Shown here: piece after piece, positions 34,965 through 58,539 of the stretch | Position numbering within the stretch: position 1 is the stretch's first letter | How the letters are laid out: each line of letters begins with the position of its first letter | Assembly: GCA_951406725.2 (NCBI GenBank) | Contig: OX597832.1 | Span: forward strand, 53,196,001-53,260,000 | Direction: 5' to 3' | DNA from: Octopus vulgaris | Taxonomy: Eukaryota | Length of the DNA stretch: 64,000 nt | The notes under the pieces: model-generated | What the model was told of the DNA's origin: nothing | Databases searched by the model: none | The model's input: only the letters and a program-made list of their open reading frames with translations | Made by a program: the position numbers and the translations under genes

Positions 34965-37214
34965 AACATTAGTGGCTTTACTATGTGGAACACAGTTTGG
35001 TAGAAGCTGCTTCAACAAAATTTCCTGTCAAACGATCAAATAGGATTCCAAGAGTCAGTACAAATATTTCATTAATAATAACCATACTTTTCTCAAGCTG
35101 CTATCATCAGCAACTATAAACTTTTAATTTTAAAAAAGTTATTGATTTTCCAAATGGTCTATTTATCGTTTGTTGATTCTTGATTCTTGTCATCGTCATT
35201 GTCTGTGCCCAGTGCAGTGATAAAATACAACAATGACCAAAAGGGTTTTAACCATCAACACGATCCAGTTGAAGCAAAGTTTAACGCTAAGTTAAAGGAG
35301 CCAATAATATTTCTATTGAAGATGGCTAGAAAACCAAACAATTCTTGGAACAAAACTTGGAATTACAATGTTTAACGCTCAAGTATGATGACAGTATTGA
35401 TTGTCAACATCATCTGCTGGATCATTCTTCAATGGCATTATTTCAAAGGATTCTTTACTGCTGCTGCCTGGTCTAAAAATATATCTCTATACAGCAGCAA
35501 TTTCTGGCGTCCATTTTGCTAAGCTTTCACATTAATGGCAAACAACTAATTATTAATTTGCCAGTGCATTATGTGTTGCTATAAGAGATTAGCTTGTTCT
35601 GTCTAAATGTTTATGTCCAAGTTTGGTTTAATATTTCCATTAGAATTTACCATCATCATCATCATCTTCTTCAGCATCATGCTTAATAGGTATGAGCAGC
35701 ACTGGTGGTGTTTGCTCAGTCTTCACTATTCACAGTAAATGAATTACTTGCAATAAGCAGCATGGATTAAATGGTTTGACAGGATCCAACAGGTCTGTGA
35801 ATTGCATCATGCTTCAATGTCTGCTTTGGTGGTGTTTCAACTGTTAGATGTCCTTTCTAACACCAACCACTTTATTGGGTACATTTTCTATAGCATCACC
35901 ACTAGCGAAGTCCATGCAGCTTCAAAACTAAGATCCTCTTCGATGGGTGGGGCTACAGTAAGGAGGGGAAGTGGCTTTATGCTACGAGATGAGAGGTTAA
36001 AATGCGAGAGAAGAGGCAAGAGCAGAACAGGTTTCTTCCAGTAGAGCAGCTAGAAAGAGATGAAAATAGTGGTTGGCAAGGTTTCAGAGTGGATCCTCAA
36101 GGTATGTGATGAATAAAAGTGAGTGGGACAGAACAGGGTGTGTGGGCAGGTAGGGGTTGCATAATTGTATGGGAGAATAAAAGACGGTGAGAGATGGAGA
36201 AAAGCTAAGGGGGTAAATATAAAGAATGAAGAACAAGTAGGGAAGAGTAGGTGACAACTGTAAAAAAATGGGTAGGACTGAGGGGTGTATGTAGTGAATG
36301 TTTGATAAGGGTGACGAATCATACATGAGATGGGGAGACGGAGAGAGAATGATGTGGTGGTGGTGGGTAGGTTGCAAATTTTTGATGGAATGAGAGGCAA
36401 GTGTAGTACATGGGGAGGGTGAGAGATGTATTGTGGTGGGGAAGGATGATCAATATAAAATGTGAGTGGAGAGAATAGTATGAAGAATGATCAATGGATA
36501 TAAAGTGAAATGGTTCCAGGAGGTGAGAAAGATAAGTGGTATAAGGGAAAAGTAGGTGAAGTATGTGGTTCTGCTCACAATTACAACAGCAAAATACTGC
36601 AGTTAGACAAAGATGAAAGATGAAGGTGTTTTGAAGAGGAAACTGAGCAAGGCAACCCAGTTTGCATTTATATACCCTGTCACCATCTCTCTCCATCCAA
36701 TTTGGGTAACCAGGTATCTCTTCTACAGCAAAACACCTGTTTCTCTCCCTCTGTCATACTCTAATCTCTCATCACCTGGTACAAAGCCACCTTCTCCAAT
36801 ATCATTGGGATCTTTGTCTTGCAAGTTACTTGGTGACTTTGCTGGTGCTGGCGTCACATAAAAAGCATTCAGTTCACTCTATAAAGTGATTGGCATTTGG
36901 AAGGGCATCCAGCTGTAAAAACCATGCTAAAACAGACCTCACCAGCACTGGTATCACATAAAAAAAAGCACCCAGGCCATTCTGTAAAGTGGTTGGCGCT
37001 AGGAACAGTATCCAGCTGTAAAACCATACCATAACAGTGGAGCTTGGTGCAGTCCTCTGGCTTGTCAATTCCTGTCAAAGTGTCCAACCCATGCCAACAT
37101 GCAAAACAGATGTTAAATGACGATACATATTGTGCTTCCAAAGTCTCAGTTTCACCAAAAGTGGCGGGTCTTCTTGAGAAATGTAAACCATCAATCATCC
37201 TGATCCTTTGTCAT

Positions 37215-37760
37215 TTCTTCCATTAGGTTCAAGGTCTTGAGATCAGCCTTCACCAGTTTACCTCATGTCTTCCTGGGTCTCCCTTTTCTGCAAGCTCCAT
37301 CCAAATTAAGTGATCAGCACTTCTTTATACAGCTCTCCTCATTTATACACATCACATGTCCATACCAGCTGGTTCTTTTTTTGCACATTGCACCTGATAC
37401 CACTTATGCACAGTTTTTCTATCAACACACTTGTACTTGAATGTTTATGTAAACTTATGTTGCACATCCAACAGACCAAGTTAGCTTCATTTCTTTCCAG
37501 TCTTCTACCCACAGTATTCAAAACCCGTATCTCACTACCATGCAGCATCACAATTCTAACACAAGTATCATACAATTTGTCCTTCAGTCTGAGGAAAAAA
37601 GACCTTCATTGTCAGCAGGTCTGAGTACTTTCCATCCTGCTTTTATCCTGGCTACTATAACGTTCAGAGCAACCACCTCCCCTGCAAAAAATATCTAGAT
37701 AAGAAAAACTATCAACTACGTCTAGTGAGCCATTTAGGTATTTAGGAGAATTTTATAGTC
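37215..37760 (-). pseudogene. RTE-clade LINE reverse transcriptase C-terminal remnant
   Basis: ORF 37339..37575 (YDTCVRIVMLHGSE...RRLERNEANLVCWMCNIS) matches the RTE ORF C-terminus; frameshifted; fainter related remnants at about 2600-3050, 48330-48600 and 63800-64000. Confidence 0.75.
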
Positions 37761-38173
37761 TATTTTAATTTTTTTTCTATGATGACAATGATGTGGTTCA
37801 ATATATCGAGAGAAAAATGAACAGGTAGATGAACCTAACACGCAGTGGATAGTATATAAATTAATTCTATGTAAGAAAGTATTTCACACTTTGTTAGGTT
37901 GTAGATGTAATCCTTTTGTTGTCAGACTTGCAAGGTCTCAGTAGTGGTGGTGGTGGGGGGCTATTGTTGCCCCCAAATTGCATTAGAACAAAATCAAATA
38001 TAATTTTGTAAAATAGTAATATTATAAATCAATTTAAAATAGTAAATATCTATTTGATATTATTTTGGTTTAAATGTTAGTGTCTTCACCAATTTGATGT
38101 GACACTCATGAAATGAAAAAGTAGTCTTCAAGTCATGGCAATTTAAACACTAAACTGACTAAAAAAAGATATA

Positions 38174-38379
38174 CAGTAATCCCTTGACTATTGTGGGTGC
38201 TACGTTCCAAAATCCCCCATAGAAATAATTAAAATCTAAAAAAATATAAATACCACCTATCAGCCGCAGAAACCCAGATAAACTGAGGAGCCCGCAATAT
38301 AAATTTACAGATTAGCCAGAAAAATCTGCGGTGCACTGAGTGCGCGGTAGGTGAACCGCGACATGGCCAGGGATTACTG
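38174..38379. mobile_element. Tigger/pogo-type MITE
   Basis: TA-CAGTAATCCCT...AGGGATTACTG-TA. Confidence 0.8.
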
Positions 38380-41300
38380 TAAGTCTATTCTGCAGAAAGC
38401 AGTTTTTGCAACATCTACCATCGTTATTTTTCAAGGGAAATGGGTGTTTGCAAAAGTAATTTTAAGAGTAACACCACAACAGAAGTAAAGTTTTGTTAGT
38501 GCTTATACACAGCTATTACTTAAACTTTTAAAATTAAACAAGATAACATGAGTTAAAGGCTGAAAGAAAGACAGTGCAAAACAAACTTTGGAATAAACAT
38601 TTTAAGATCCCTCCCTTAACTAGTAACATTCTATATCAGTTCTTTTAAGGTTCCCTTCCCTACACTGGTTAAGTATTAGAAAGTAGAAAATGAAAGTGGT
38701 TTGGTCATATAACACAACACCATATAACTTCTACTGAATAGTCATGCATGGACAAACTGATGCAGGAAGACTACAAATGGGGTGGTTGAACAACACCAAA
38801 ACAACAGACAAGGAGGATGGCAAGAAACAGGACTGGGTAAGATGGAGATGCTAGTTGCGTCTCCTGCTGTGCAGCCTAGGCTATCTATTTTGGGTTAGGG
38901 TTAATAATGCATTTGCATAAAAACCCATATTTTAAAGCACTACAAGTGTACATTGGTCAACTTCTATTGCACTTAAGAACCCTTGTGTAGCCGGGAATCT
39001 TTTACAAATGATCAACTAATGCCATCACTGCTACCTTTGTCAGACAAAACTTGTTTAAAATTTTCCCAATTATTATATAACCTAAACAGCTTTCTAAAAT
39101 AAATATGGCTATAAATTTAATCCCTCTTTTTATCTGAGGTGTTCTTAATTTGGAATTATTTGGATATCTATCAGCTGGCATTATAAATCAATGGTTTACA
39201 TGACGAGGGCAAAGAGAATTTCTGCGTATGTAAATTCTCTTAAAAAATGCCAGCATAAAATGGTTAACCAAGAAATAATGAAAGTTCTATAGAGATTAAA
39301 TTGACAAATATTGCACCATCTTTTTATTAAAAGCCAAAAATAACAGCCACTAGTCATCAATTACTCATGAATAAAAGCCCCCTCCATCTTCATAACCATT
39401 GCAACTTAGAAAAAAAAAAAAAAAAGGGTTTTATTTACATCTATTTCCCCTCTATTAGCACTAGCCTAATTTCCCAATATGACAGAATTTCCCATTTTAG
39501 ACCATTTATACTTTTAATTTATAGAATTCTCAAAATTTCGCTTCTTTCTCCTTTGGTAGTTCTTTACCAAGTTAACATATTCTCATTATCTAAATCAATG
39601 CAACCAAGATTTTACATGTAAAGTTCGAGTGTAAAAACCTGACCACCACAACATCAGGTTCTAAAATTCATCCCAGTTCAAACCACTTATGATAATTTGA
39701 CTCATTCACCTGTTCATAAGTATTCTATATCAGTATCAATAATATGTAATAAACTCTGAGGTTGAGCACATATACAGACCAATAATATTGTTGAATACAA
39801 AAGTTAACAACAAAACAAGGTTGAAATTTAAGGTACACTTCATGTACATATGAAAATCATAAAATAATAATAATAATAATGATAAAAAGGTCTATGAAAG
39901 CCATTAAAGTCCACCAAATAAAATAAATGGAAGACCAAAGACAAGCACAAAACAATTCATACATCATTATCAACTCAGAAAACACTTTCACTCTGAAATT
40001 AATTAGATTGAGTGTATCTGACTTATCTAGAAATTGAGAATTTGCCTAGGAGATCTTATAAAGACTTCCAATCCAAGCTCATTTCTATTGATAATTCATA
40101 GTAACTACTGTATTTTCCAGCAGACAGATTTGGAATTTTTGCAGACAAAAATTTACAGCTCCAAAAGAGGAAGGTCAACTTATACAAGAGGACTTTGGAG
40201 AGATAGCGACGATGCTTGAATGTTTACATGATATATATGTCAACTTGTGTGCCAGAAAATATGGTACTTTTGTGTTCTCTCTTGTTTGTTTAGCTGATGT
40301 GTCATTAGTCCCGCAGGAGATAAAAGTGTGGTAGTAGACCTGATTAATTTAGGTAACTTTATTCAGAAAAATCTCCGAAACAGAAGCCAACTTCGACAGG
40401 TTCATTGTATCTGAACTATTTGCATGTAAGAAAACCACATTGCTATGAAGAAACATGAAATATTTGTACTAAAATCCTAATTTACAATATTGACCAAGTT
40501 GATATTCTTTATTGTAAATCACATGTAATTTGTTGAATGCCGCAATAAACTTAGAAGTTTGTATCACTGAAGGTCATTCTTTTTCAACAAACTTCAAACT
40601 TGATTTTAATTAATGATTATATTTACATTAAAATTAGGTTTCACAAGTAGACAGACCTTTGTCTGATAACATATCTGTGCTCTAATTGCTCACACAGTAG
40701 CTGCGACTCAGTATACACACAATCTCTTTTTATACATTGGATCGTTAACCTCCTCTTGACAATGTATATTCACAATATTTACACGTGTACAACATGTGGT
40801 ATCATGGATAGAATGTTATTACACTTAGTTTAGAAATGAAATTCATAGCTAGACACCAGTTAGCGTGTTATATACACATCCAAGAATGACACACCTGATG
40901 ACAAATGAAGATCAAACTAATGAAAACCAATAGTAGATATCAATCAATACAAGGTTAACAGAACAGAAAATTATAATTATTATTAACAAGTCATCTCATA
41001 CATAAGAAATAATCATTAAATCATCAGCCTTTTCTAATTTTTAATCCTGCCTTTCTCAACTGCGAATCCCAGATCTACTTCACCTAGTATTTCCAGCCTA
41101 GTCTCAAATCCATGTTTATCTTCTCTATCATCAACAATTGCAATCTCTTCAGTTAACTATCAAGAAAAATATGTAATCTTCCTACAGTCACTACTAACCT
41201 TCCTTATTTTACCTCTCTCACATTCATATTCAACATACAATATACACTATTTTTCGCTAACAGCTGCTATCCACGACCAGACACCAACTACATCTCATCC

Positions 41301-42686
41301 TGCATATCATCACACATCACATGAGAATACAAGAGTATTATTTCCTATATGTCTTCTACCCGAGGTCTGCATTATCACAAGCTCCTGTTTTCCAACTCAC
41401 TATTTCTACTATAGACACAAGACCCGAAATTTTGGGGGTAGGGGATGCTAGTCAATTACATTGACCCCAGTGCTCAACTGGTACTTTATTTCATCAATCC
41501 CGAAAGGATGAAAGACAAAGTTAACCTGGGTGGAATTTATACTCAGAACACAAAGCCAGAAGAAATGCATTTTGTCTGGTGCAGTAGCAATTTTGAGCAG
41601 CTTACTGCCTTAACTTTCCGTCTAATAACGATGCCATAAAGAATAATTTGAATAACGATGTCCAAGAAAGAAACAAGCCACAATGGTTAATTATCCATAT
41701 TCAGTCCTAACACAACTTCTTAAGTTGTAGTGAAAGTTTCAATTTATCAATTTTGCGGTCTAATTTCTTTTAGATGGCAACTGTTGGCTACAAGTTACAA
41801 ACAGACCAATTACTGTTTCACATGGTAAGAATAGCAAAATAGAGTCTGTAACTTGAAGCACAGCAAATCCTTGCTGTATGTATTCACATTTTTAGCTTTA
41901 TTTTACTTTATTTCTAGGCTGTATGATAGTTTACAAACAACTTTACAGTATATTAATAAGTTATAATCTAAATACTTTGCAGTGTATTTATGTTACATTA
42001 TATTTTCTTAAGTGTATAAATTCCGTAAAGAATATTGAATCTAAGTTATATTCTTTTCTACATTGTGCTTTCAGTAAAAAGTCTGTGGCCATGACATGGT
42101 ACTGCCAAAAAACACAAAAAGTTATTTTTACATCCGTTTTATCAGCAGTAATATTTATTACTGAAAATTATGTAAAAGTTCATAAAGTATTAGAAAGTTC
42201 TTTTTTTCTATTTAACAAATGTGTTTCAAATCTGTTTTGAGCTGAAGGACAGGTAGCCAGCTTATTCTATCAGTTGGTCATATGGAGTTTCAAAAAAAAA
42301 CCCCAAAGAGGTGTTAAAGAATGTATGGAATATTTCATCATTAGAAATTACATTTTTTGTGGCTGCATCAACATTTTATAATATTGTGCACTCAATAAGG
42401 ATGATTTAACATTAAAACTGCTAGAATGAATATTAAGCTGGGGAGAAGGTAGAAAAGTCTGTTTTGGATTTTGTCTTCCTTGAGGGGACAGGGTAAGAAA
42501 GATACATACACTTTTAAAACCAAGATTGCAATTGTTTTAGATGAGATATTTAGTTGCCAGAAAAATTTCTTTTATTATTGGCCACTCAAAAAATATTTTA
42601 CGAATATAATTAATAACTTCTGGCAGGCAATTTTAGAGATGTAGTGCAACAATGTTGTCAGTGATGAGGTTGCAGTTTAGAGTGAC

Positions 42687-43024
42687 TACCCTAAAGTTCA
42701 ACCCCTCCTCAAAGCGGTAGGGTGGTGTAAATGGGCAGTGTCAGAGCTATGCCGTCGGGAACTTTGGTTCTTGGTAGGGCCACCCAAGGCGGATTGGTCA
42801 GGCACTGAGCGGTATTAGAACTGCAGCCTGGCCAATGGGGCTCTGGTGAAAATTCCAAGAGGCGTCTGATCGGCAACCGGCGGCTTCGAGGTCGTTCTGT
42901 CACTCGGGATATGCATGCGGGATGTCGGGGACCGCTTGTGAATTCAATATTCCCACGAAACTTCTCAGATAAGAAGCCGGCTCAACCTGCCCTGGGTGAA
43001 TGCCGTCACAAGTACAAGTAAGTA
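42687..43024 (+). mobile_element. Bipartite RTE-derived non-autonomous retroelement, copy 2
   Basis: Homologous to 34589-34964; 13-bp TSD AGTTTAGAGTGAC / AGTTTAGGGTGAC. Confidence 0.8.
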
Positions 43025-43503
43025 AGTTTAGGGTGACAAAAATTTTGGCATCATATTACAAACAATGAATGTTTATGCAAAGTTAACAGTGTATATTTCT
43101 GAATGACTGACTTATGCCTTCCATGCTGCTATTGTTGTCATTTAAAAGATTTTGGCAATTTCGAAAAAACATGAGTCTCTCTCTTTCTTAAGGACATGTG
43201 TTCAAGACACACGGCTTTGCTTCTTCTTCATGGCATACCATTTATTCCAACAGTAAACTTCACTAAGTGTGATTAGTGTTAAGAACAGAGCTAAACTCTA
43301 GAGAAGGTAATTCTATGGAGGAAGCCATAAAAGTTATACAATAATATTCCCCATTTTTCTGAACCTATGTGTTCTGTGTCAGAGAAATTATTCTCAAAAT
43401 ATACCAATTTCATACATAAGCACAAAGTTTAAGATTTCCAAAGAACGAAATGAGAACATATGATGCATTTTGGTGGTGATAGCTGGGATTCGAAACAGTT
43501 TAC

Positions 43504-43545
43504 CTGAAACTTATGTTGTACGACAATGTGTACATTGTAATTTTT
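43504..43545 (-). CDS. FMR1: Candidate 42-nt cassette exon in the KH2 variable loop (KNYNVHIVVQHKFQ)
   Basis: cattttattttaccag|AAA...CAG|gtaaac; phase 0-0, no stop codon. Confidence 0.4.
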
Positions 43546-44014
43546 CTGGTAAAATAAAATGATGCAATTAATTAATGTGGAGTTCATTTTAAAATATAAA
43601 ACAATATTTTATGAATGCTAAGTAAAATAAAATACTTATTTAAGAATGATATATTTGTATTTTTAACACATCAACCAAAATACATTTATATGATTTACTT
43701 TTAAAAAAAATAACAGCCAAAAAATATAAAACTTGCCATCATAAATTTTTTTTTTTAATCTTTGTACAGTATCTTATGTATGATATTGCAAATAACTTAG
43801 TAATACATTTAAAAAAGGTGGTAGACCCAAGTGGCTCCTAACCCAAATATAAACCCACTATTTCTAGTCATGCTCAATACCCTACAATTTGAATGATAGC
43901 CAATAATTTTTTCAGCCATACACTACAACCTCTGGATCAAATCCCCCGTCCCATCTCATTTTTCTACAACTATAGCAATGATAGCATCAACACCTTTGTA
44001 CTGCTCAAAATTAC

Positions 44015-44290
44015 CTTTAACCCACATTTAACCAATACATGTCATCTCTTATGTTTCACCCCAGCCCATAAATTAAACAGATGGTTGAGTTAAACGGGTC
44101 ACTTTTCCCAATACTTCCTTCACAGACTATTACTGCCCCCACTCCACTCCACCCCTGGAATTCCTTCCCAACCAAATTTTTTCCTGCAGATGATGGCTTA
44201 CAGACATTAAAGTTAGTTGACCAGATATCGATCTCACCAGTCTCAGAAGGCTGGCAAATATCATGGCTACTGTCCCACATCTTCATTAAA
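44015..44290 (-). other. Candidate stop-containing (poison or truncating) cassette exon in the KH2 intron
   Basis: Strong acceptor ttttatttttatattctttgtag and donor AAG|gtaatt; 276 nt; in phase 0 it reads FNEDVGQ-stop (TAG at 44267-44269). Confidence 0.35.
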
Positions 44291-44340
44291 CTACAAAGAA
44301 TATAAAAATAAAAGCTCCCTATAGTATAATAATATATACT

Positions 44341-44615
44341 TAAACCCTTTCATCATTTTTATAACATGAATTGACTGCTTTAATGTTTAAATTAATTTTC
44401 AAAATAAATCAAGAATTGAGTGAAATTTAACAAAATAATTATATAACCTGTTGGTTGTATAACTGGCATGTGGAACATAAAAGTGTTCAGCTACGCATAT
44501 TATTAAATAATAAGATGTGATCTTAATTGAAATATGTACATTTATGAGGGAATTTTAGACAGATTGGTAACAAGGGAGAAGGAGCAGTGTCTGATAGGTT
44601 GGTATCAAAACGGTT
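44341..44615. mobile_element. Degraded piggyBac-type MITE, family 2
   Basis: CCCTTTC left end, GGTATCAAAACGGTTA right end, similarity to the 12290 copy. Confidence 0.55.
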
Positions 44616-44813
44616 AGACACTAATTACTTTAAATGTTGTGTTACTGCATTGAAGTTAATATAAGCTTGAAGAATAAAGAGTCTGCATGGACTATAATAT
44701 GAACATAGTAAATATTGAGGGCAAGATACCAGATTTAACTCACAACAGACTCTTAGAAAGAAGACAAGCAAAAGGAATATTGTTGATAAAATACATGTAT
44801 TAAAGTTTCTGAC

Positions 44814-44879
44814 CTGACTCATATCGTTAGGTGCGGACAGAGGGACGCTAGCAACATCCAGGCTATGCATTCCTAGGAG
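44814..44879 (-). CDS. FMR1: Candidate 66-nt cassette exon in the KH2 variable loop (LLGMHSLDVASVPLSAPNDMSQ)
   Basis: atattttcag|CTC...CAG|gtcaga; phase 0-0, no stop codon, GC-richer than flanks. Confidence 0.65.
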
Positions 44880-44979
44880 CTGAAAATATTGACCGAGTAT
44901 GAGACTGGGATCAAAGATTAGAACAAAAACCCCACCGAAAAACTAAGTCATATGCTCCTTACTGAAGAGAAGATAGAAT

Positions 44980-45215
44980 TATACATACATATATATATTT
45001 AATACACACATCCATACATATATAATACATATTGCACGCATACATATGATACACACATAATTATACACATATATAATACACACACAAATAAATAAATAAT
45101 ACACACAAATATGTAATACACGCAAATATAATACACACATAAATATATAAAACACAAATAAATAAAACACATACATAAGTATAATACACACATACATGCA
45201 CAAATTCATACAGTA
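44980..45215. repeat. Low-complexity CA/TA-rich tract (UG/UA-rich on the FMR1 transcript)
   Basis: Degenerate ATACAC/ATAA repeats just upstream (transcript sense) of the 66-nt candidate exon. Confidence 0.8.
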
Positions 45216-46111
45216 ATATGCAAATATTGCCCTAAAGAAAATAAACGATAAAACATTACATCAATTCTTCGTTAAAAAAAGCTACAACATTAAACAGTTC
45301 TAGTTTTGGGTTTAATTATGGCAAATAAAAATTAAAGTTGAAGTAATTTAAGAGAGGGATGTACGTTAAATTTTTTATGCTGTGACAGCTATACCTTAAC
45401 CAACTAACTCATTAATCATAATTAGGCCTTAATGAAAATTCCTCTCTCCATAAACTGACATAGACAATGGAATAATTGTTAATCTAAGACACGTTCTGAA
45501 AATGCAAAAGAAATAATTACAGAAATCATTTCAAATTAACAAAAGCTAAGTCAATATTTATACGAATTTAATACACATATTAATTGAAAATTGATTACAG
45601 ATGCACTCATTTGTGCATCTGCAACCACAAACTAGTTTTTGCATTTTTGTAAATGTGTAAATGTAAGACCACGATAAAAAAAATTGCACACACACACAAA
45701 CATACATACAATGTGTGTTTAATTACACAAATACAGTTGTATTGATCCTTAAGCTAGATGGGTTCAGCTCTAGATAATATGGAAATGTACTTTGGTTAGA
45801 ATAAGGTCACTTAAGAGAATGTACTCTATCTCCAACCTTCCACTCTAAATTCAGGAATGGGTTTTACCTTAAACTGCCAGCCAAAAAGCATTCCTCATGA
45901 TTGTTATACTGCTAAATGTTCTGTGGTAGGTTGTAGTCTTCCATAACTTTTACAGATGGCTGGGTTAGACATATCAAAGTTCTATCTCGGTGGATTTATA
46001 GACAAAGGAAACTCAATTGACAATCTTTCAACCAGAAAGCCATCACCATCAACTCAACCAACTGTAGGAATCACACACACACACACACACAATGCTCTTG
46101 ATCCCACTAGA

Positions 46112-46591
46112 CAAGTAGTTCCCAACTGAGGTCCATATGACCACTGGGGGAAGGGAATAAGATTTTTGGGGGCACATCATCATCATCATTTAGCGTCCGC
46201 TTTCCATGCTAGCATGGGTTGGACGGTTCAACTGGGGTCTGGGAAGCCAGAAGGCTGCACCAGGCCCAGTCTGATCTGGCAATGTTTCTACGGCTGGATG
46301 CCCTTCCTAACGCATGTGCTAGCAAAATATTAAATTGGGGACCCACACTAGTAATATTAAGGGTCCTTGAAAGAATTTTGCTTAAGATGTATATATTACA
46401 AGGAACGGCTAAATTTCTTTCTCTAACATTTTACATTGCTCAACCTCTACAATGTGTGACCAACAACATAGGATTTTTGAAAGTATCCATGAAACTAGTT
46501 TTTAACCATCAAATAGTTATAGGGGTCCACCAGAGTAAAATAGTAATCAAAGGGATCCATAGGTAAAAAAAAAAATGGTTGAAAACCACTG
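46112..46591. mobile_element. hAT/Charlie-like MITE with nested SINE tail (46177-46312); partial sister copy at about 28360-28620
   Basis: Ends CAAGTAGTTCCCAAC...GTTGAAAACCACTG; internal similarity between the two copies. Confidence 0.6.
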
Positions 46592-49500
46592 CATGAGACA
46601 GTCAGTGCACTCTACAAAGCTATATTCTTCACCATTGTTGGTGTCCTTTGCTGTTATCCACTAGCTCACATTATTACTATTTGAGAGCTATGAATCCAGA
46701 TTCAAGGCATGAAAACAGACTTCTAAAATAAAAACTCTACAAGACAGAAAAACTTTGGCTGGTATGACCTCCAATATACTCCGTAGTCGAGAGCATCCAC
46801 TGTAAAAACTATCAACAACATGGCTAGGAGTTGTTATGTTGAAGTTGTGCACAACAGGAATGGTATCGAGTATAAGTATCCCTAGCCCCTTTCAACTAAT
46901 TTGTCTGCAGTTAGCTATAAATATGAGAACAAAAAAATAGAACTAGGGAAATATGACAAAACTACAATATTCAAGCTATAAAAAAAAAAAACGTAAAGAC
47001 AAAGACTTTTCAGTAAATGCTTCACAACAAAGAACAACTTGGATAATGTTAACCTTTGCATGACCAATCTGTTTGAGACTCTGGCTGGTTCTAAGATACA
47101 AACTTCTTGTTTTAAGAAATCTTAAAACCTTTCATCAAAATCTCATAATTCATGTTCTAAACACTTTCTTAATGACTAAGTTCTAGCCATGAATTTTATT
47201 GCTAAACTAAGGGTAATAACATTCTAACCATGATCCCACATGTTGTACATGTATAAATATTTCTAGGGTTAAAGGAAACAACCTCAAGGGGACAGACAAC
47301 ACAAATATTAGGGAAAAATAACTGGTCATAAGTGGTCTTCATTGCCATGGCACAAAATTGATATTTCTTCCAAGAGTGAAACCATTATTTATGACAACTT
47401 TCAGGAAGCTAGCCAAGTAATGAGTATATATCCCAGCCAGATAGGACAAGTTTCCCTATTTATGCAATACACCATCCAACACAGATTAGGGGCTAGTGAA
47501 AACCCACCAAACTGAAAATCCTGTCCACTTTTCCTTTGTGATATAGGTTGAATGGGCACTGAATGCAACTGAAGGGCCTTTCTTTGATAATCAATTTTGG
47601 TTAATGCCAAGAAAGACAAAAACATCAACAAAAACGGTGACACGAGACATTCCACTGACAATTGGTTTAGTGTCAAAAGGACTTGGAAAGATGAATTACA
47701 TCTTGAAATTAGACAAGAAACCTCGATAAGAAAGAGGGTAGGGTTGGGGTTAAGGGAGCAGGTGATGCATTGAAAGGGACACTGGCACATCTACATTCCC
47801 TATAAAAGGTTGCCGAATAATAATTATAAAATTGAAACCAACAGGGAGAGTGAATTGAGCAAGGGCCATTCACTTTTTAGTTAATTTATGCAGGGAAACA
47901 GGAAACTGCTCTGACAATTTCCTTTGCATTTATAGAGATGGAAGATTCAGATGTCTTTCAGTTCTTGAATTTTTGTTTACATATTCCATCATCAATAGTA
48001 ATTAAACCATATCTTTGTAGATTTCACTTAAAAGGGTAGCAAGTCGTAGCCTTTGGAATATTAAATAGTCTTGATGTAGGGTCTAGGGTGAAGGTAGTTT
48101 TATTAGCGTTCAATTATTGAATCATTCAATAATGGAGTGTAGCATAGTCTAGTTCTCTTTACAACTTTGTTAGTAGGATTCCTAATCTTGGTGATGAATA
48201 AGGTGAATCCAAAAGAGAATGGGCCATAGATCACTCCCTACCAGCAATCAGTCCACCCTCTTTACCTATGTAAATAGCATGAGCTAAGTTTTCATCACTG
48301 AATAAACAGCGTTCAATAACTACAAATCATTGCAATATTTTCCCAATACAGTATCTAGCCATTGATTCTTGTCTTTGAAACCCAACGTCTTCAGATCTGA
48401 CCTCACCACTTCTTCCCAGAAAAAACACTTCCCATTGTCAGCACAACATGACATTTTCACACGACGTGTGTAATAAATATTAAATGTGTCCATGTAAACA
48501 GAACTACCGTTGTATAGCTTGGACAATGCCTCTTAATGCCATGTTATTACATGTGCTTGGTGTTTCATGACAGCTCATGTTGCACATCTAATGAATCTAT
48601 ATTTAGTGAAGTCTAGCTTTCACAAAGCATCTTATGTCTGCCTCCTTTGGTATGGAGAGAAATATTTTGTTTTCAACAAAAGTAACAACTCCTTCTGACA
48701 TTAGTTCCCAAACTTTCATTGCGACCAATTACATTACTTTAAGTCTAGCTTCATCCATCTCTATATTTTGCTTACAGAATACTGTTTTTTTAAAAACTTT
48801 TTTTATAAATCTTCCTACTTAAACAAAACCATTTCTTGAACAGGACTTGCAAGAATTGTAGACCATCTAGATTTGTAATTTCTTCTCTAGCCTGCAGACA
48901 CATCAGACTAGCACCACATAAAAGTTCCAAGATCCATTTAACTTGAACTCTTGTTGTAGAATCCCAGGCAACACTAAAAACGGTGAATGCCTAACTATAC
49001 ATTAAATTCTTCAGAGGCTATTACTAACCATTATACATAAGTTGGATTATTTACTCCTAATATTTTCAACACCCATCAAGAATATAGTGTGCAAATCTAT
49101 CAAAGCCTATTTCAGGGGTGAAGAAAACCCGAGACAAAATTATTGCCGTCATTTCAATAAAGACAGTGTCTGTAGTTCTAATTCTGATAAAAGTTGCATT
49201 ATCTAAACTAACAATATCCTGTAGTATGGAATAAGTTTACCAATTTCATTTTATGCTTTGGTCCACCAGTTTGAGGCTTTGAAGCAATTTAGCATCACCT
49301 GGGAAGTTGCAGAGGAATATGCTTAAAACTGGGATGATTGGAGACATCTTGCTGCCCGGCATACAGGCCAATTGTCTGAGAGGAACTAAGTACTTAAAAC
49401 AGATCCCTCAATGAAGAAAACAACATAGCCTGCAACTTAATACCTAACTTACACAATCTGGTACATATCTACACAGGGCCACGTCATACTGAAGCCGAAT

Positions 49501-49887
49501 AGGATCCAACTCTGGCAAGTGTTAGAAATTAAAAACAAAACTTTTGTGTAAGTTGAAGTATATATTCATTAAATTCAGTTAAACCACTTCCTCTATGATG
49601 TCTAGTGTAATGCATGCTATTTTACATGCTACAGTTACTAACATAGTTTGTACATATTTCTACGACATTTGCAGGTTGTTTTACAGATGGATGCCCTGGT
49701 TTAATAGGAGAGGTACCACTTTGCTATTATGATATGAAGTAGGTTTATATTTATAAACTACAACTCAAATCTCTTAATGGAAATCAAACCATGCGTCTCG
49801 AACACCCTGAGCCAAATTATCTAACCACTACGTTACGGGCATCCTTTCTAGCTCTCTAAGACATTAATAGCAATAACAAGCACTTAC

Positions 49888-49899
49888 CTTTAATACTAA
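49888..49899 (-). CDS. FMR1: Candidate 12-nt microexon in the KH2 variable loop (LVLK)
   Basis: tagtgcag|TTA GTA TTA AAG|gtaagt; perfect donor, phase 0-0; no transcript evidence. Confidence 0.4.
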
Positions 49900-51318
49900 C
49901 TGCACTATTTGATACAACAGATAAAATATATATATATATATATGTGCTTAATTTGAAAAGAAAAGATAACGAGGCAAATGGGGAGTAGTAAGGAAAATCT
50001 TCTAAACAGAAGAGATGCTATTTTTGTTCTCTTGAATTTATTCATAGAAAATATATTTAATACTGTTCACATGGGAAACTTGTGCTAATATATGTATTTA
50101 TAAATTGCACACATATAGAGCAACAAATATACACACTCATACACAGACACAAATATGTAATACACACAAGAATAAAAACATGTTACACACACACACACGT
50201 ACATACACACATATGTGTACGTTAAAATAACTTGAATAAGCTAATGAAAAGTAAAAATAAAAAAAAGGTGTTTTCAAAGATTAAAAAGACTAACATTAGA
50301 AACTGCTAGAATCAATGAAAAGTACTTGACATGGATCAGATACTCTGAACTTTTAAAGAAAAGGAGTAACATGGTTGAAAAGTTACTAATATACATTCAC
50401 CAATTTACCGAGTTCAAAGTATGTTCTAGTACATTTTTAATTTCTCCTAAACAAGTCATTAATTACAGTGGTTATAATGAAATAATTTTTTATATAATGA
50501 TTGTTTTATTATAGTTAATTAAACTAAAACTAAGGTAAATTTCTGGCAGCTGTGAAAAAGCTGCCAGTCTTGAGAGAACACTAGAAATATAAACAGTCTT
50601 ATGAACAACCTTCGATGTGATGGAAATAAACTTAGTACATCACCCAAGTAAGATTAACAACAAAATTCACACAAGACGTAAGGTTTAGTAAATTATTCGG
50701 AGATAAGGCTATAGATTTCACAAATACAACTAAGCTATCAATCACTAAAATATTTAGATAGGTTCAAAATAAATCCCACAGCAAGCAATTGAAATGCAAG
50801 ATTGTTTCTTCCTTTTTTTTTCTTCTTTCACAATGAACAATACACTACAACAGAAATAAAACCACATCAACATACTAGTAGACAGCAGACCAAGCTACGT
50901 ATAATTTAAAGCAATATTTAAATTAAGATCTTATTGAGATGTACTAGAGCTGTTATATTTTCCATCTACATTTCACTAAAGTACACTTATGTTAAGTGAA
51001 GGAAACCAAGGAAAAAAAAAAAAAAGCCATAACCTAAAACGGATTCTGTTCCAAGCTATAAACTACAAATCATTTATCCTAATAAGGCTACTTAGATCTC
51101 CTGTACATCTATACTAATATCTGTAGAGAATTTAATGCTTAATGACTATTTAACGAAATTAAAATTGAGAAATCAGGGCAATTTAACGAAAATACAAACA
51201 AAATGATATACACATCTCTAGCTTAAAACTAAATTGTTACTGAAGAGTATGAATGCTGAAGCCATGCCAAGTAATTTCACTTCAGAGCAGGTACAAATAG
51301 TGAAGAGTTCACACATAC

Positions 51319-51428
51319 CTCTTCTCTAGGAGCCTCATGTTCATTATCACCTTCAATTTTAACTCTAACAACACCAGATTTATCAACAATATCTTGAATA
51401 TTTCTGCCATTTTTACCAATAACCTTAG
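51319..51428 (-). CDS. FMR1: FMR1 exon (KH2 N-terminal half, GxxG = GKNG)
   Basis: cag|CT AAG...GAG|gtatgt; 110 nt; (A)[36 protein letters not shown]; the Ile equivalent to human I304 is conserved; ends in phase 0 at the KH2 variable loop. Confidence 0.97.
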
Positions 51429-51789
51429 CTGAAAATTCAAAAGCAAATAATATTTTTTTGTTATGATGAGATATAATCAATCACAATACTTAACATTCAG
51501 CATTTTACAAATTTGAAATTAATTAAGTTTTGTAAAATTCATTAGTTAAATTGCTTCAATCTTCACAAAGTTAGTTATAATGAACTGTTTCATGTTAATA
51601 TGTTGAACGGTTCTAAAAGGTTTAGAAATTTGTATTTTATAACAAATAGTTCTCCTTGTAATTCCTTATTTCTTAACACGGTGGACAGTTTGATGGCAAC
51701 ATTCTCAAAAACTGCAAATACTGTTGTCAGAGGATGGGTGTGGTGATGACAGGTGTACATGTTAAGTTTGAAGTCACTGAACTATAGCG

Positions 51790-52040
51790 ACTGAAGGATT
51801 TAGTCAAACAAATCGACCCCAGCATTTCTATTTTGAAGCCTGGCTCTTATTTTACTGGACTTTTTTTTGCCAAACTGCTAAGTTACACAAACACACAGGG
51901 GTTCTTTCACGTTCCAAATCCACTCACAAGGCTTTGGTTGGCCCACGGCTATAGTAGAAGACACTTGCACAAGGTGCCATGCAGTGGGACTGAACCCAAT
52001 GCCACATGGTTGGGAAGCAAACTACTTAACCATACAACCA
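51790..52040 (-). mobile_element. SINE family A (internally deleted)
   Basis: Homology to family A head and body. Confidence 0.7.
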
Positions 52041-52546
52041 CGTCTGAATCTATATAGCAAAAGATTTAATAAAATTCAGCTGTGGTTGCTCTGGGATTGA
52101 AACACTTTCTCTCCTCATGCAGACAAAACTGCATCCAACACAAAAATGCAGATTCCTAACCAACAACTGCCGACCACTCTATTAAATTTCCTACATTATC
52201 AGGATGGTGCTTCACCTTTGAACAATATGGAGTAGACAACTTAGAAACCATAAGTAGAATTTGAAGAACATTTAAAAGAAAAGCTTATTTTCTAAAGGAC
52301 ATACATTCTCCAGAGAACTACAGTTATTAATCCTTTCTACTATAGACACAAAGCCTGAAATATGGAGGAGGGGGATAGTTGACTACATGGACCCCAGTAG
52401 TCAACTGGTACTTATTTTATCGACTTCAAAAGGATGACAGGTAAAGTCGATTGTGGCAGAATTTGAACTCAGAACGTAAGGATGGATAAAATGCCACTAA
52501 GTATACCACCCAGCACGCTAATGATTCTGCCTTAACTACAATTAAT

Positions 52547-52869
52547 TGAGACCCCCTTTGGTCATGAGTGACCGTGGGATTGCACCTAGAACGTTACTCT
52601 CCCAGGCACAAGTCCGAGCAAGGTTGTTTATGGAAGACCAGCAGTCGCCCATGTATACCGGCCTCCCCTCTCCACGCCACCAGTGTTATTCAAGGGAAAA
52701 GCAACAGCAGATACAGCTTGGCACCTGTGACGTTACAACTCATTTCTACAGCTGAGTGAAATAAAGTGTCTTGCTCAAGAACACAACACGCAGCCCGGTC
52801 CAGGATTCAAACTCACAACCTCACGATCATAAGCTCGACGCTCTAACCACTGAGCCATGCGCCTTCACT
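52547..52869 (-). mobile_element. SINE family C
   Basis: Reverse complement of 878-1212. Confidence 0.85.
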
Positions 52870-54401
52870 ACAGTTAATAACGAAATGAAAATATAGTGGG
52901 ATATCTATCTCATAACCAATTCTGCCATGTATAAAGAAGAAAAAAAAAAAGCCCAACTGTTGATTAGCTGTACATATGTCATGATGACATCTATTAATGA
53001 CAGCCGTAAACATGTTTTTGTCGATCAGAAATTGGCAGTCTTCTTCAAGAAACAAGCCACAGAAGACATGACTCATCATCTGGCAGGACACATTACTAAA
53101 AAATTCAAAAGGTAATTTTCCATTAGGTATACCATTCAGAAAGTCCCATGGGCCACAGGTTGCCCGAGACTGGTGTAGACAAAGTTATTCGGCACACCTC
53201 TTTGTCATATTGAAAAAGATTAAGGACAAACTGCTGAGAAAATTCATAGCTCTGTAACAAAGTAAAAATCACTTAGGTAGCAGCCATAAAGTTTCAAAAC
53301 CGGCTCGGTGAACATAATATTAAACTCTGAAACATGGCCAATAAATAAGGAGGAATCAATAATGAACTGAAAAACCTGTCAGTGATTCCTACAATACAGT
53401 TAACAGCTTTATCACCGTGCCTAACCAACAACACTTAGGTATAAATATGAACCGAGTGAAATGTACCAACTAAATGCTGTTTTCAGGTTTTCCCATGAGA
53501 CAAGAGGTGACTGCTGCGAAGAAGAATTAAACAGTTATCAAAAACAGAATTATTATCTTTCTAGGTTCACATACTGAAAGTCAGTAGCACTGCCTCTCAG
53601 AGAACAAGTCTGTTGAATTGATAAACATTTTTATAGATATATCCTTGGTTCTGAGACCTAGAGCAGTAGAGATCACAATTCTGTAACTGGTTTTCAGTGA
53701 AGGTAAATAAATCATGAGCCAAACTTAGCCATTTTTAGTTACTAAAACCATAAAACCCTTAAGTAAATGATAACCTTTAGATAATACCATAATTAAAAAA
53801 GAGAGACCATTTCTAAATACCATTCAGTCCAACAATTTGGCAATTCACTTACTTCAATAACACATCTCACAAATTTATCAGCATGGGATTGATTTGTTTA
53901 TTGGTTTTGTAAACAAAGTTAACCATAAAGTTATGTTTATTTTAAAAAAAGATATTATTAACTGATAAGAAAAACTGTTGTAAATGCTAATAGAGTATTC
54001 AGTTTGCTAGTCTTGTCCAGAAATGATCTTGGAATTGTTGCACGAGAGTTTAACAAAATAAATACTCTTTATTGGGTTGCACTTGACATATCTGTATATC
54101 CGTGATATTTAATCTGTTTTAATAATGATTTTTGTTTTGACTAGAAAAAATAGGAATTTATGCAGGAGAAACTATAGCTGACTGAACTAACTGCTGTTAA
54201 AATTTATTTTTAGCAGCTTAAAAGAAAAAAAAAACCTCATCACAACCAAGAGAAATTGCAATTTAATTAGTCTTGGAATTCTCCTCTTATATTAAATTGC
54301 AGCTCCAACAATGTGTAAATACTCAAACTTCGAGAAGCCATTCATCTTACAACATTCAGGTTCTACAGAAGTCCTTTATCAGAGAATATAGGTATTCTTA
54401 C

Positions 54402-54480
54402 CAACTAAATCGCGTGGAACTTGAAAGGTCTCCTCAGCGTATTCAAGCATATTTCTAGCTTCTCGGACAGCATCTTCAGT
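54402..54480 (-). CDS. FMR1: FMR1 exon (KH1 end / KH2 start)
   Basis: tag|ACT...GTT G|gtaaga; 79 nt; TEDAVREARNMLEYAEETFQVPRDLV. Confidence 0.95.
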
Positions 54481-54679
54481 CTAAAATAGAAAGAATAAGA
54501 AAATAAAATCTTGACATGAGCTTTTTTTATAACTAAGATACATCTCTGTTTCAACTGAATTCTAAAATAACTGAAAACTAAGATTGGCTTTGTAAAGAAA
54601 TAAGAAAACAATATTTTTCTGTTACTTTCACGATATAGGAATGACATGTTTGGAACACAGATTCCTTAAGTTTTCATGC

Positions 54680-54878
54680 AAAGGCGGACTGAAAAGTCCA
54701 TAGGCTGACTATGACGGAATGATGTTAAGAGTTGTGAAGTCTTGCATGCATTAATTTCAACTCCTTTTATTAATAACTGCATCATTTCTTTCCAGGTAAA
54801 CTGACGTCTGATTATTCAAAAGACTTTGAAAATGGACAAAATTTGGCATTGTAGTCTTATCAAGTACCTGCAGAAAAA
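54680..54878 (+). mobile_element. mariner 5' fragment
   Basis: TIR-like GGCGGACTGAAAAGTCCATAGGCTGAC; ATG at 54832 gives MDKIWHCSLIKYLQKK, resembling a mariner transposase N-terminus; truncated by a SINE. Confidence 0.6.
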
Positions 54879-55274
54879 GCACCATTCAAGTGTGGTCGAT
54901 GCCAGTACTGCCTGACTGGCCCTCGTGCTTGTGGCACATAAAAAGCACCCACTATAGTCTTGGAGTGGTTGGCATTAGGAAGGGCATCCAGATGTAGAAA
55001 CTTTGCCAGATCGGATTGGAACTTGGTGCAACCTTCTGGCTTGCCAGCCCTCAGTCAAACCGTCCAACCCATGCCAGCATGGAAAGCGGACTTAAACAAT
55101 GACCTTACATTACCACAAACATATCCAACCTTTATATGCCAATATCTCTTCCCAATCTCTAACTCTAAAGCCTGATTCTATTGTTCATGATTCAGATTTT
55201 TTCATAATCCTTTCTACTACAGGCCTAAATACAGAAGGAGGGAGCTAGTTGATTACATTGACCCTAGTACTTAA

Positions 55275-56730
55275 CCCTTTCGTTACTAACCCGGCCGAAA
55301 AATTTTTTGGTTCAAAGTACCAACCCGGCCGTTAGAACCCATTGTTATTTAAATGTAAATTTGAACCCAAATCTCGTTGGTACATTCGTTAAAGCATGTG
55401 ATTTCACATTGTAAATAGTTAAGTTATAGTATCCGACATTGCTTGAAGTGATATCTCAACTCAGTGAATTTTGGGAGATTTTTTTCCACATGTTTTTCGG
55501 CATCGATTTTTCTTCAACTTTGAAAATGGATAGGAGTTTCATGTTATCAAGCATTGATTCCGAATTTAAAGCTTTGTCAATGGATAATAGGGAGATATCG
55601 AGAAAAAGAATGAAATAGGTACTAAAGCACGTGGTGTACAATAATGAATAGGATATTTTTTTATCCGAAAATGAAAGCAGCGCCTTCCGAAGAAACAAAG
55701 CGGCGAAGGCGACAGCGAAGACGATTTTACATCGGAATGAAGTAAAAAAACTTTTAAAATGTTTTTATTAGCAATTTTTCTGAGGAGATAAAGTTTATCT
55801 ATAGCCTTTCTTAGGAAGTGAAACTATTAGACTTTTATTTTTTTCAGTATGCTAGTTTGAAGCGATCACTTCGGAAACAAACCTACGCAGATTGTAAACA
55901 AACCCAAAATCGGGGTTCAAAGTTTGGGAAATTTGTGAAGCAAATATTGGGTACTGTTGTGGATTTAGTTTTTATACAGGGAAACTAATGTTAGTCAGCA
56001 TGGCTTAGGGTACGATGTGGTCTGGAAGTTATTGTTTGAAGGGATCAATGTGGAAACACACTTACGCAAATTGTAAACAAACCCAAAATCGGGGTTCAAA
56101 GTTTGGGAAATTTGTGAAGCAAATACTGGGTACTGCGTGGATTTAGTTTTTATACAGGGAAAATAATGTTAGTCAGCATGGCCTAGGGAACGATGTGGTC
56201 TGGAATTTATCACTTCCATTCCATAACCAGGGCCGTATATTATTTTTTGACCGATTTCTTTAGTTCGGTCAAACTTACGGTGGATTCCAATATTTCAGTT
56301 TATTCCACCTTTATGGTACACCTGTTGTGCATTAAATTCAACTGATGATCTAGTGATGTGCACAATTCTTCTTTATCAAAATTTTGTTGCATACCCATTT
56401 GAATATTAGCTGATGATTCATTTTCTATAGTGATGTTTAAACAAAATTTTACTATTTTTACCTTTTGCTCAATTTAAAATTTTAATATTTTTACCTTTTG
56501 CTTAATTTACCTGGATTTACCTGTAATTAAAGTCACTTTGAGACAAAAGTTATGCAATAGAATTGATTAAGAACCCTTCCTTTAATTATGTTCCAAATAT
56601 CACATTAAAATGTTGATAAGTAAAAAAGTTACAGTTATTTAATGAAACAAGCCTAAATTCATGATTATTTTAGAATTTAATTGAAACTCATGTGGGGTGT
56701 ATTTTGGTCAGGAATATAGTAACGAAAGGG
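55275..56730. mobile_element. Non-autonomous piggyBac element (1456 bp) inserted in a SINE
   Basis: TTAA TSDs at 55271-55274 and 56731-56734; perfect 14-bp TIR CCCTTTCGTTACTA; internal ~180-bp direct duplication (about 55885 and 56065); no intact transposase. Confidence 0.9.
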
Positions 56731-57350
56731 TTAAGAACCTGAAAGGATGAAAGACAAAGTCAACCTTGGCGGAATTTAAAATCAGAACATAAAGATGGAC
56801 AAAATACAACTAAGCAGTTTGCTCTGATGTGCTAACAGTTCTGCCATCTTGCCACCCTTTTCTTCTTCATGATAATAAAGCCTAACCTATGCAAAGTAAG
56901 AATTTTTAGTTATTTGTAGGTGTTTAACAACCAGTGCTTGAGAACAGTACAAGTTCACATGAGTGACAGTGTGCACCAGCATTTAACAGCCATGTTTCAT
57001 GCTGGTATGGGTTGAATAGTTCAACAGGGTATGATGAGCTCAAGGACTGCACTGTGCTCAAGTGTATTTTGGAATGGTTTGTACAACTGGATGCCATCTC
57101 CAAGAATTTATGCAACCAGGCAAAAAGCAAGACCACAGAAGATAACTTTTGAGCAAATTTTTTTTCAGTTTCAATGTATGAGAAACATGTGTAAAGTGGG
57201 GTTCGGCAGTGATTAGGAGAGAAAACATATCCTGATAACACTGATTTACAGAACTGTTAAAGATTTTTGTTTAAAATATGAAATCATTGTCCTGCAGCAT
57301 AATTTAGACTTGCAATTTTCATGAGAGCATAGATGTTTCAATTTAAAATA

Positions 57351-57713
57351 TCTCTATATATAAACGGCAAAATGTCTGCATGTATGTCCTTTATACAAAT
57401 CCACAATTTTTCAGTTCGAGGGCTCGCACTTTCTATGGTCAATCAAAACCATCCAAGGGTGGTCGTGCACATCTTTACATTTGTCCAGTCACCCCACAAA
57501 ACCATTAAAAAAATCAATAGAAGTGACTTTTTTGTGAATTTTCTATCCAAAATTCAATCAAAATGCCTGAAACTTGATATGCCAATTGAATGCCAGCTAG
57601 CTGTATGTGATTCGTCGGAGATTTGGACAGTACTCGCTTGTATGTGCACACGCACGCAGCTGTATATGCATGCACTAGCACTATGACCCGGCATTGCTGG
57701 GTCATAGTGCTAG
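57351..57713 (+). mobile_element. Non-autonomous Helitron (363 bp)
   Basis: 5' TC(TCTATATATAAA), 3' hairpin followed by CTAG, inserted between A (57350) and T (57714), no TSD. Confidence 0.8.
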
Positions 57714-58351: not shown

Positions 58352-58539
58352 CTAAAAGAAAAAGATTCAAAACAGAAAAAATAAATTAGATAAAATGCCT
58401 TGATGAAAAGAGAACTTTACTGGAAAAAGTAAATGTGAAGTAGATTAAATAAATATAGGAACGGATTTAGTAACAAACTGCCACATCATACATAAAACAA
58501 AGAAAAAAATTAAAACGATGATTATCAAAATCTCCTTAC

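What the first reader, a model, noticed from the sequence alone, without database searches (positions are those of the whole stretch)
43504..49899. Cluster of hidden cassette exons that could rebuild the FMRP KH2 variable loop combinatorially
Seen: the largest intron (33713-51318, 17.6 kb, phase 0) splits KH2 exactly at its variable loop (...APREE|GQVPF...). It holds three frame-preserving AG...GT candidates: 12 nt (LVLK, 49888-49899), 66 nt (LLGMHSLDVASVPLSAPNDMSQ, 44814-44879) and 42 nt (KNYNVHIVVQHKFQ, 43504-43545), all in SINE-poor sub-blocks. Established: mammalian FMR1 has an extended KH2 variable loop encoded by exons 11-12, exon 12 (63 nt) is alternatively spliced and alters KH2 RNA binding, and FXR1/2 and Drosophila Fmr1 have a short loop. 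Inference: this lineage may have independently evolved a modular spliced loop extension at the same position, giving up to 8 in-frame loop isoforms. Short AG...GT pairs can arise by chance in a long intron, so each needs testing.
Basis: partly seen in the sequence, partly recalled or inferred. Interest (0 to 1): 0.85.

Follow-up and report, generated by a model that had tools for sequence, protein, structure and literature searches.

The report
Octopus FMRP's optional KH2 loop exon
An optional 66-base exon lengthens a loop in the RNA-binding KH2 domain of the octopus fragile X protein, at the junction where mammals carry their own, dissimilar loop exons, and likely tunes RNA binding by convergence; the two other proposed exons found no support.

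Summary
One of the three candidates is real. The 66-nt segment (44814-44879, minus strand) is a true Fmr1 cassette exon. A young processed retrocopy in the same genome joins it with exact ends. Contigs of 4 of 4 runs laid include it, and one also skips it. Public octopus annotations already hold both forms. The peptide is 21/22 identical in cuttlefish. It sits at the junction of human exons 11-12, in a predicted disordered KH2 loop, and has no detectable likeness to a mammal-type exon-11 insert. The 12-nt and 42-nt candidates appear in 0 of 1 retrocopies, 0 of 4 runs and 0 of 15 cephalopod proteins, and their splice signals are within chance. So the supported count is two loop isoforms, not eight. 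Wider point: isoform-level length changes map to this loop in 25 of 45 species sets of molluscs, a brachiopod, an annelid, nemerteans, chelicerates and a fish. That makes it a recurrent splicing hotspot, not a mammal or octopus speciality. Function is untested.

The parts
44814..44879 (-). Fmr1 cassette exon, 66 nt, phase 0/0, LLGMHSLDVASVPLSAPNDMSQ (residues 331-352 of P0121), weak acceptor and weak donor (CAG|GTCAGA)
   Evidence: retrocopy junctions; contigs of 4 of 4 runs include it, 1 also skips it; 11 of 15 cephalopod proteins include and 4 skip; 21/22 in Sepia, 13/22 in Argonauta
51319..51428 (-). Upstream constitutive exon: KH2 GKNG loop, helix 2, strand 2, start of the variable loop (ends APREE)
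33626..33712 (-). Downstream constitutive exon: KH2 strand 3 and helix 3 (starts GQVPF)
44880..51318 (-). Intron upstream of the cassette, 6,439 nt
33713..44813 (-). Intron downstream of the cassette, 11,101 nt
49888..49899 (-). 12-nt candidate (LVLK): perfect donor, poor acceptor; unsupported, likely a chance pair
   Evidence: not in the retrocopy, 0 of 4 runs, 0 of 488 stored proteins; 0.36 such donors expected
43504..43545 (-). 42-nt candidate (KNYNVHIVVQHKFQ): unsupported, likely a chance pair
   Evidence: only self-match in the genome; 0 of 4 runs; 0 of 488 proteins; rank 53 of 1003
20248..60723 (-). Part of the Fmr1 gene mirrored by the retrocopy L001:3457-5320 (15 exon blocks); the gene extends beyond both ends of this range
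   Evidence: Pfam Tudor_FRX1, Agenet, KH_9, KH_1 on P0121, FXMRP1_C_core just below its cut-off

Best explanation
The 17.6-kb Fmr1 intron holds one real cassette exon of 66 nt that is included in some mRNAs and skipped in others, adding 22 residues to the predicted disordered loop between strands 2 and 3 of KH2, where it likely tunes RNA binding or domain stability as mammalian exon 12 does. Shown: exon ends, inclusion and skipping, position at the human exon 10/13 junction, conservation between octopus and cuttlefish. Predicted: the insert is unstructured and leaves the KH2 fold intact. Inferred: weak splice sites make inclusion partial; the exon arose on the coleoid line separately from mammalian exons 11-12, at a phase-0 intron in a loop that tolerates length; purifying selection keeps it because the long form binds RNA or partners differently. 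The 12-nt and 42-nt segments are likely chance AG..GT pairs. My odds: exon real 0.98, alternatively spliced 0.95, sole substantial cassette 0.8, effect through KH2 binding or stability 0.5.
For: Retrocopy C4:98494457-98496320 joins 51319 to 44879 and 44814 to 33712 with no extra bases, and the exon is identical over 66 nt. Contigs: 4 of 4 runs from 4 studies include it; X10 also has a joint skipping 66 nt. They span the exon junctions and lack the 4 retrocopy-private letters, so they are read as parent-gene mRNA. Annotations named O. sinensis, O. bimaculoides and O. vulgaris each hold an isoform pair that differs by exactly these 22 aa. Sepia 21/22, against 108/125 for the Agenet domains and 111/172 for the C-terminal tail. 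PDB 2QND, human KH1-KH2 with the loop cut out, aligns PQEE|GMVPF to PREE|GQVPF. Human exons 11 and 12 give 45 and 21 aa, and exon 12 raises the Kd for kissing-complex RNA from 110 to 310 nM and destabilises KH2 in vitro (PMC2722981, passages). AlphaFold2: strand 315-318, pLDDT below 50 at 323-350, strand 354-362. No similarity to a mammal-type 45-aa insert (P0360, shuffle p 0.29). Splice scores 4.1 and 5.5 bits lie at the bottom of the gene's own range.
Against: No functional test. In humans the loop is dispensable for kissing-complex RNA binding, so the effect may be small. Argonauta, an octopod, keeps only 13/22 while its flanks are 49/50 and 29/29, which argues that exact sequence can be lost. 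The runs were found with an inclusion-form query, are contigs that drop rare forms, are not on record as RNA, and come from an organism differing from the window at 14 of 895 positions. They cannot exclude rare or species-specific 12- or 42-nt inclusion, nor give inclusion levels or tissues. Human exon 12 itself was not retrieved, so only exon 11 was compared. No Nautilus, squid or cuttlefish DNA was available.
Confidence: 0.75

Rival explanations
1. One reading: two or three cassettes, with the 12-nt one a neural microexon, combine into 4-8 loop isoforms.
For: The 12-nt segment has the intron's only AG|GTAAGT donor, ranks 7 of 1003, and has TGC before its AG (a UGC cue for neural microexons is recalled, the paper was not held). 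Mya arenaria has four annotated loop forms (none, VDTS, DPLQ, both), so combinatorial loops exist elsewhere. Contigs drop rare variants.
Against: 0 of 1 retrocopies, 0 of 4 runs and 0 of 15 cephalopod proteins carry either segment. Public pipelines did catch 2-6 aa loop variants in other molluscs. 0.36 perfect donors are expected by chance. 52 segments in the intron outscore the 42-nt one.
Confidence: 0.12
2. The exon is real but the peptide is a tolerated passenger: the loop accepts any in-frame insert, and conservation reflects splicing signals or RNA structure rather than protein function.
For: 11 of 15 non-coleoid loop inserts begin with Val or end in Gln/Lys/Glu, as read-through of a neighbouring GT or AG at a phase-0 intron would give (sequences; inference). 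The loop is dispensable for one human RNA ligand. Argonauta drifted to 13/22.
Against: 21/22 identity between Octopus and Sepia exceeds that of the folded Agenet domains. The inclusion form is in 4 of 4 runs and in the retrocopy. Exon 12 inclusion changes with development in mouse brain (PMC3591412, passages).
Confidence: 0.25
3. Origin rival: the exon descends from an old molluscan or lophotrochozoan alternative exon that diverged beyond recognition, so it is not a coleoid invention.
For: Scallops, Mercenaria, an ark clam and Elysia have inserts that cannot be plain GT or AG read-through and so are likely cassettes. Short likenesses exist: VPLS/VPLT with scallop (shuffle p 0.08); S[LF] in 6 of 16 inserts (post hoc p 0.008).
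Against: Overall similarity among 16 lineage inserts is not above shuffles (p 0.16). S[LF]Q endings are what a translated polypyrimidine tract gives. Lengths run from 4 to 24 aa.
Confidence: 0.25

Closest known systems
Mammalian FMR1 exons 11 and 12 (KH2 variable loop, residues 331-396)
   Same: Same junction (EE|G[MQ]VPF), frame-preserving, optional exon of near-equal size (22 vs 21 aa), disordered loop beside the RNA-binding cleft.
   Different: No constitutive exon-11 equivalent, so skipping gives the short FXR/dFMRP-type loop. No detectable similarity to a mammal-type exon-11 insert; exon 12 not compared. Skipping dominates adult mammalian brain, whereas inclusion is the form seen in all 4 runs here (a biased sample).
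Fgfr IgIII hotspot of recurrent alternative splicing across Bilateria (Burguera et al. 2017, PMC5703972)
   Same: One intron in a ligand-binding region with unrelated alternative events in many lineages (passages; here).
   Different: Here it is an RNA-binding domain loop; event types outside octopus are inferred from proteins only; no regulator is known.
RefSeq isoforms X1/X2 versus X3 of Octopus sinensis and O. bimaculoides FMR1/FXR1 (XP_029648132-4, XP_014769061-3)
   Same: The very exon: X1 and X2 include it, X3 skips it.
   Different: Automatic annotation only; no paper on it was found.
Processed retrocopies, including those captured by LTR retrotransposons (the latter recalled)
   Same: L001:3457-5320 is intronless, about 99% identical to the parent, cut at both ends, with no poly(A), beside RT-RNase H remnants.
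   Different: Used here only as a record of splicing; capture mechanism not tested.

Membership tests
FMR1/FXR family | Tandem Agenet/Tudor, KH0, KH1, KH2, C-core and RGG-rich tail | tested here: met
   Pfam on P0121 (C-core 29.1 bits vs cut-off 29.6); PDB hits 2QND and 4QVZ; exons map to the window
Cassette exon (66 nt) | Joined to both flanking exons at AG/GT ends in a processed transcript | tested here: met
   retrocopy; contigs
Cassette exon (66 nt) | Skipped form also exists | tested here: met
   X10 joint skips 66 nt (1 of 4 runs); P0122, P0123, P0124, P0129
Cassette exon (12 nt, 42 nt) | Present in any processed transcript or protein | tested here: inconclusive
   0 of 1 retrocopies, 0 of 4 runs, 0 of 488 proteins; contigs cannot show absence
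Cassette exon (12 nt, 42 nt) | Splice signals above the intron's chance background | tested here: not met
Cassette exon (12 nt, 42 nt) | Conserved island in other cephalopod genomes | not testable with these tools
   no second cephalopod genome is held; the metagenome scan for the 66-nt exon end gave 2 unrelated loci
Mammalian exon 11/12 type loop extension | Insertion at the KH2 strand 2-3 junction | tested here: met
Mammalian exon 11/12 type loop extension | Sequence homology to exon 11 or 12 | tested here: inconclusive
   not met for the exon-11-type insert (P0360, p 0.29); exon 12 not retrieved
Mammalian exon 11/12 type loop extension | Inclusion changes KH2 RNA affinity or stability | not testable with these tools
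   needs biochemistry
Neural microexon (SRRM4/eMIC type; features recalled) | 3-27 nt and neural-biased inclusion | tested here: not met
   the real exon is 66 nt and is in a heritable retrocopy; tissue data unavailable
Recurrent splicing hotspot (Fgfr IgIII type) | Alternative events at one position in many lineages, more than elsewhere in the folded region | tested here: met
   25 of 45 isoform sets vs 9 of 45 at the next site; sets are related and partly chosen after loops were seen
Recurrent splicing hotspot (Fgfr IgIII type) | Events non-homologous at DNA level | tested here: inconclusive
   peptides only; no genomic DNA for other lineages

The most novel reading that the evidence does not exclude
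The KH2 variable loop is a splicing-controlled dial on FMRP that animals have rebuilt again and again at one phase-0 intron. Coleoid cephalopods evolved and kept a functional analogue of human exon 12, giving large-brained molluscs and mammals a convergent switch on FMRP RNA targeting, and a natural panel of loops with which to settle what exon 12 does.
Probability: 0.4. Interest if true: 0.65.

Novelty: new member of a known kind. Interest (0 to 1): 0.45.

Why it matters
The papers read describe the extended KH2 loop as a mammalian acquisition, absent from FXR1/2, fly, chicken and frog, and say the role of exon 12 is undefined. A conserved optional exon at the same junction in coleoids, and length variants there in many other phyla, turn a mammalian oddity into a repeated experiment. 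Comparing KH2 with and without each natural insert could show whether loop length alone or loop sequence sets RNA choice, stability or condensation. The exon itself is already in databases, and the eight-isoform idea is not supported, which keeps the score moderate.

Tried and rejected
(1) Eight isoforms: no support for the 12- or 42-nt segments. (2) The run search listed no holder on record as RNA; this is not used as evidence. (3) A-to-I edits frozen in the retrocopy: five G-to-A rows suggested it, but four are changes private to the sequenced organism, and retrocopy-versus-window differences show no A-to-G excess (3 of 17). Rejected. (4) A shared ancient microexon from the S[LF]Q motif: more simply a translated polypyrimidine tract; overall similarity is not above shuffles. 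(5) Mya as two microexons: VDTS begins with Val and DPLQ ends in Gln, so alternative donor plus alternative acceptor explains it as well. (6) A relic of the Sepia HFSLSQ insert in the 188-nt intron 58352-58539: the look-alike at 58399-58419 has an in-frame stop and no GT, and the Sepia insert looks like an acceptor shift. Rejected. (7) Metagenome scan for the exon end: 2 chance loci. (8) Search of proteins under 402 aa: no cephalopod loop among the 120 listed of 195. (9) The long-read annotation of PMC9699675 could not be read; it may bear directly on the 12- and 42-nt candidates. (10) Paper searches with no relevant hit. (11) Earlier findings: none. (12) The best-scoring segment of the intron by weight matrix, 45196-45231, has no support in the retrocopy, runs or proteins, which shows how weak such scores are.
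Full report
Observation. The gene is an octopus Fmr1 on the minus strand; its exons match P0121, which the sources name O. vulgaris and O. sinensis. That alone means little. The intron has 1003 such segments of 3-150 nt. With a weight matrix from the gene's own splice sites the candidates rank 7, 23 and 53; the antisense strand has 2, 7 and 17 as good, and shuffles give 1.2, 6.9 and 21.9 (one of 13 training donors was mis-placed). The 12-nt donor is the only AG|GTAAGT in the intron, against 0.36 expected.

A natural cDNA. Searching the genome with the upstream exon gave 2 matches: the window and C4. The 66-nt stretch also matched C4, directly behind that exon. The 42-nt and 12-nt stretches matched only themselves (12 nt is too short for such a search to count). 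C4 (L001:3457-5320) is an intronless copy of 15 exon blocks, with 17 substitutions in about 1,860 nt and an open frame reading APREE-LLGMHSLDVASVPLSAPNDMSQ-GQVPF. The exon ends are thus exact, and neither other candidate was in that mRNA. Since the copy is inherited, the mRNA was in germline or early embryo (inference), so inclusion is unlikely to be neuron-only.

Transcripts. The run search listed 18 holders in 5 studies among 24 rows, none on record as RNA, all as contigs. I laid 4 of them, from 4 studies, on L001:3900-4800. All 4 include the exon. X10 also has a joint that skips exactly 66 nt (depth 8.3, against 21.1 and 23.4 for the two inclusion contigs; depth is no inclusion level) and a contig running from the exon into the next intron. 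No 12- or 42-nt insertion, loose end or in-between letters were listed. The contigs lack the 4 retrocopy-private letters and differ from the window at 14 of 895 positions, so they are read as spliced mRNA of a close relative. They were found with an inclusion-form query and drop rare forms.

Annotation and conservation. Of 15 cephalopod proteins retrieved, 11 include the 22 aa (one of them is the retrocopy's product) and 4 skip it; O. sinensis, O. bimaculoides and O. vulgaris each have a pair. None of 488 stored proteins has the 12- or 42-nt peptide at the loop, though only those 15 could be expected to. Against P0121 the insert is 22/22 in O. bimaculoides, 21/22 in Sepia pharaonis and 13/22 in Argonauta. 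For Sepia the Agenet domains are 108/125 and the tail 111/172. The octopus-cuttlefish split of about 270 My is recalled.

Position and structure. Human KH1-KH2 with its loop removed (2QND) aligns PQEE|GMVPF to PREE|GQVPF; the removed part is residues 331-396 (PMC13669641, passages), exons 11 and 12 of 45 and 21 aa (PMC2722981, passages). The AlphaFold2 model from 64 sequences puts the insert (331-352) between strand 315-318 and strand 354-362, with pLDDT below 50 at 323-350 and the rest of KH2 confident. A mammal-type protein with a 45-aa insert at this junction (P0360, unnamed) is no more like the octopus insert than its shuffles (p 0.29). Exon 12 was not retrieved.

The wider pattern. I compared isoforms within 45 same-species sets, leaving out single records, fragments, the retrocopy protein and a second Saccostrea echinata locus. 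In the folded region (1-362), 25 sets vary at this loop (one by a single Gln), 9 at the KH0-KH1 linker, 5 insect sets at residue 313, and at most 3 anywhere else; 0 of 9 insect sets vary at the loop junction. The 15 sets from clusters chosen before the loops were displayed give 12 against 3. The sets are related and share annotation pipelines, so these are not independent events. Variants occur in bivalves, gastropods, Lingula, Owenia, nemerteans, horseshoe crabs, a spider and a pipefish fxr2. Of 15 non-coleoid inserts, 11 start with Val or end in Gln/Lys/Glu and may be donor or acceptor shifts, while 4 (scallop, Mercenaria, ark clam, Elysia) cannot be and are likely cassettes; this is inferred from peptides and assumes the same intron. 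Together the inserts are not more alike than shuffles (p 0.16). [quoted passage not shown]

Mechanism. Shown: one optional exon giving a short and a long KH2 loop. Predicted: a disordered insert on an intact fold. Inferred: weak sites (4.1 and 5.5 bits; leave-one-out ranges 3.6-17.7 and 5.7-12.3 without the mis-placed donor) make inclusion partial, and the long loop, lying beside the RNA cleft, lowers or shifts RNA binding or stability as exon 12 does (Kd 110 to 310 nM; developmental shift in mouse brain, PMC3591412, passages). Against this: the human loop is dispensable for that ligand, Argonauta has drifted, and nothing was assayed.

Novelty. The exon is already in RefSeq. I found no paper on it or on an FMRP loop hotspot (the library lacks most subscription journals). 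PMC9699675 (passages) does not mention FMR1 in its main text, and its long-read annotation could not be opened. Verdict: a real, conserved, likely convergent counterpart of mammalian exon 12; two isoforms, not eight; a new member of a known kind; interest 0.45.

Noticed in passing
L001:3399-5320 (G000:C4): Young Fmr1 retrocopy with a still-open frame of 640 codons and 4 amino-acid changes against P0001, lacking the first 47 residues, the last codons and a poly(A); a matching 523-aa protein (P0125) is in a public annotation.
   Followed up: partly
L001:104-3346 and 5318-6089: The retrocopy is flanked by duplicated blocks (213 nt, 94%; 338 nt, 98%) and lies beside broken RT-RNase H reading frames, which suggests capture by an LTR retrotransposon. 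Observed only.
   Followed up: partly
window 27510-27543 and 31160-31214: Seven positions where the window differs from both the retrocopy and the sequenced relative cluster in two exons, hinting at a divergent allele or at changes after retroposition.
   Followed up: no
window 31247/31253: Alternative acceptor 6 nt apart (with or without Arg-Gly): 3 of 4 runs have the long form, the retrocopy and X4 the short; both are annotated.
   Followed up: yes
window 44813 downwards: An X10 contig (754 nt, depth 3.4) runs from the cassette into the downstream intron: pre-mRNA, or an intronic 3' end that would cut KH2 before strand 3.
   Followed up: no
window 25402-25428: A 27-nt exon in the RGG-tail region, present in the retrocopy and in P0121.
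   Followed up: no
P0126 (Argonauta hians), residues matching 329-352: The loop exon changed at 9 of 22 residues plus the adjacent Glu to Gly, while the rest of KH0-KH2 is unchanged: a lineage-specific burst.
   Followed up: no
window 58352-58539 (KH0-KH1 linker intron): A second, weaker site of isoform length variation (9 of 45 sets, including Sepia); nothing convincing in octopus.
   Followed up: partly
P0060-P0099 (insect isoform sets), octopus residue 313: Five insect sets vary inside KH2 just before strand 2, not at the variable-loop junction.
   Followed up: no
window 45035-45194: Degenerate AT/AC microsatellite about 150 nt upstream of the cassette acceptor; the best-scoring decoy exon 45196-45231 abuts it.
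   Followed up: no
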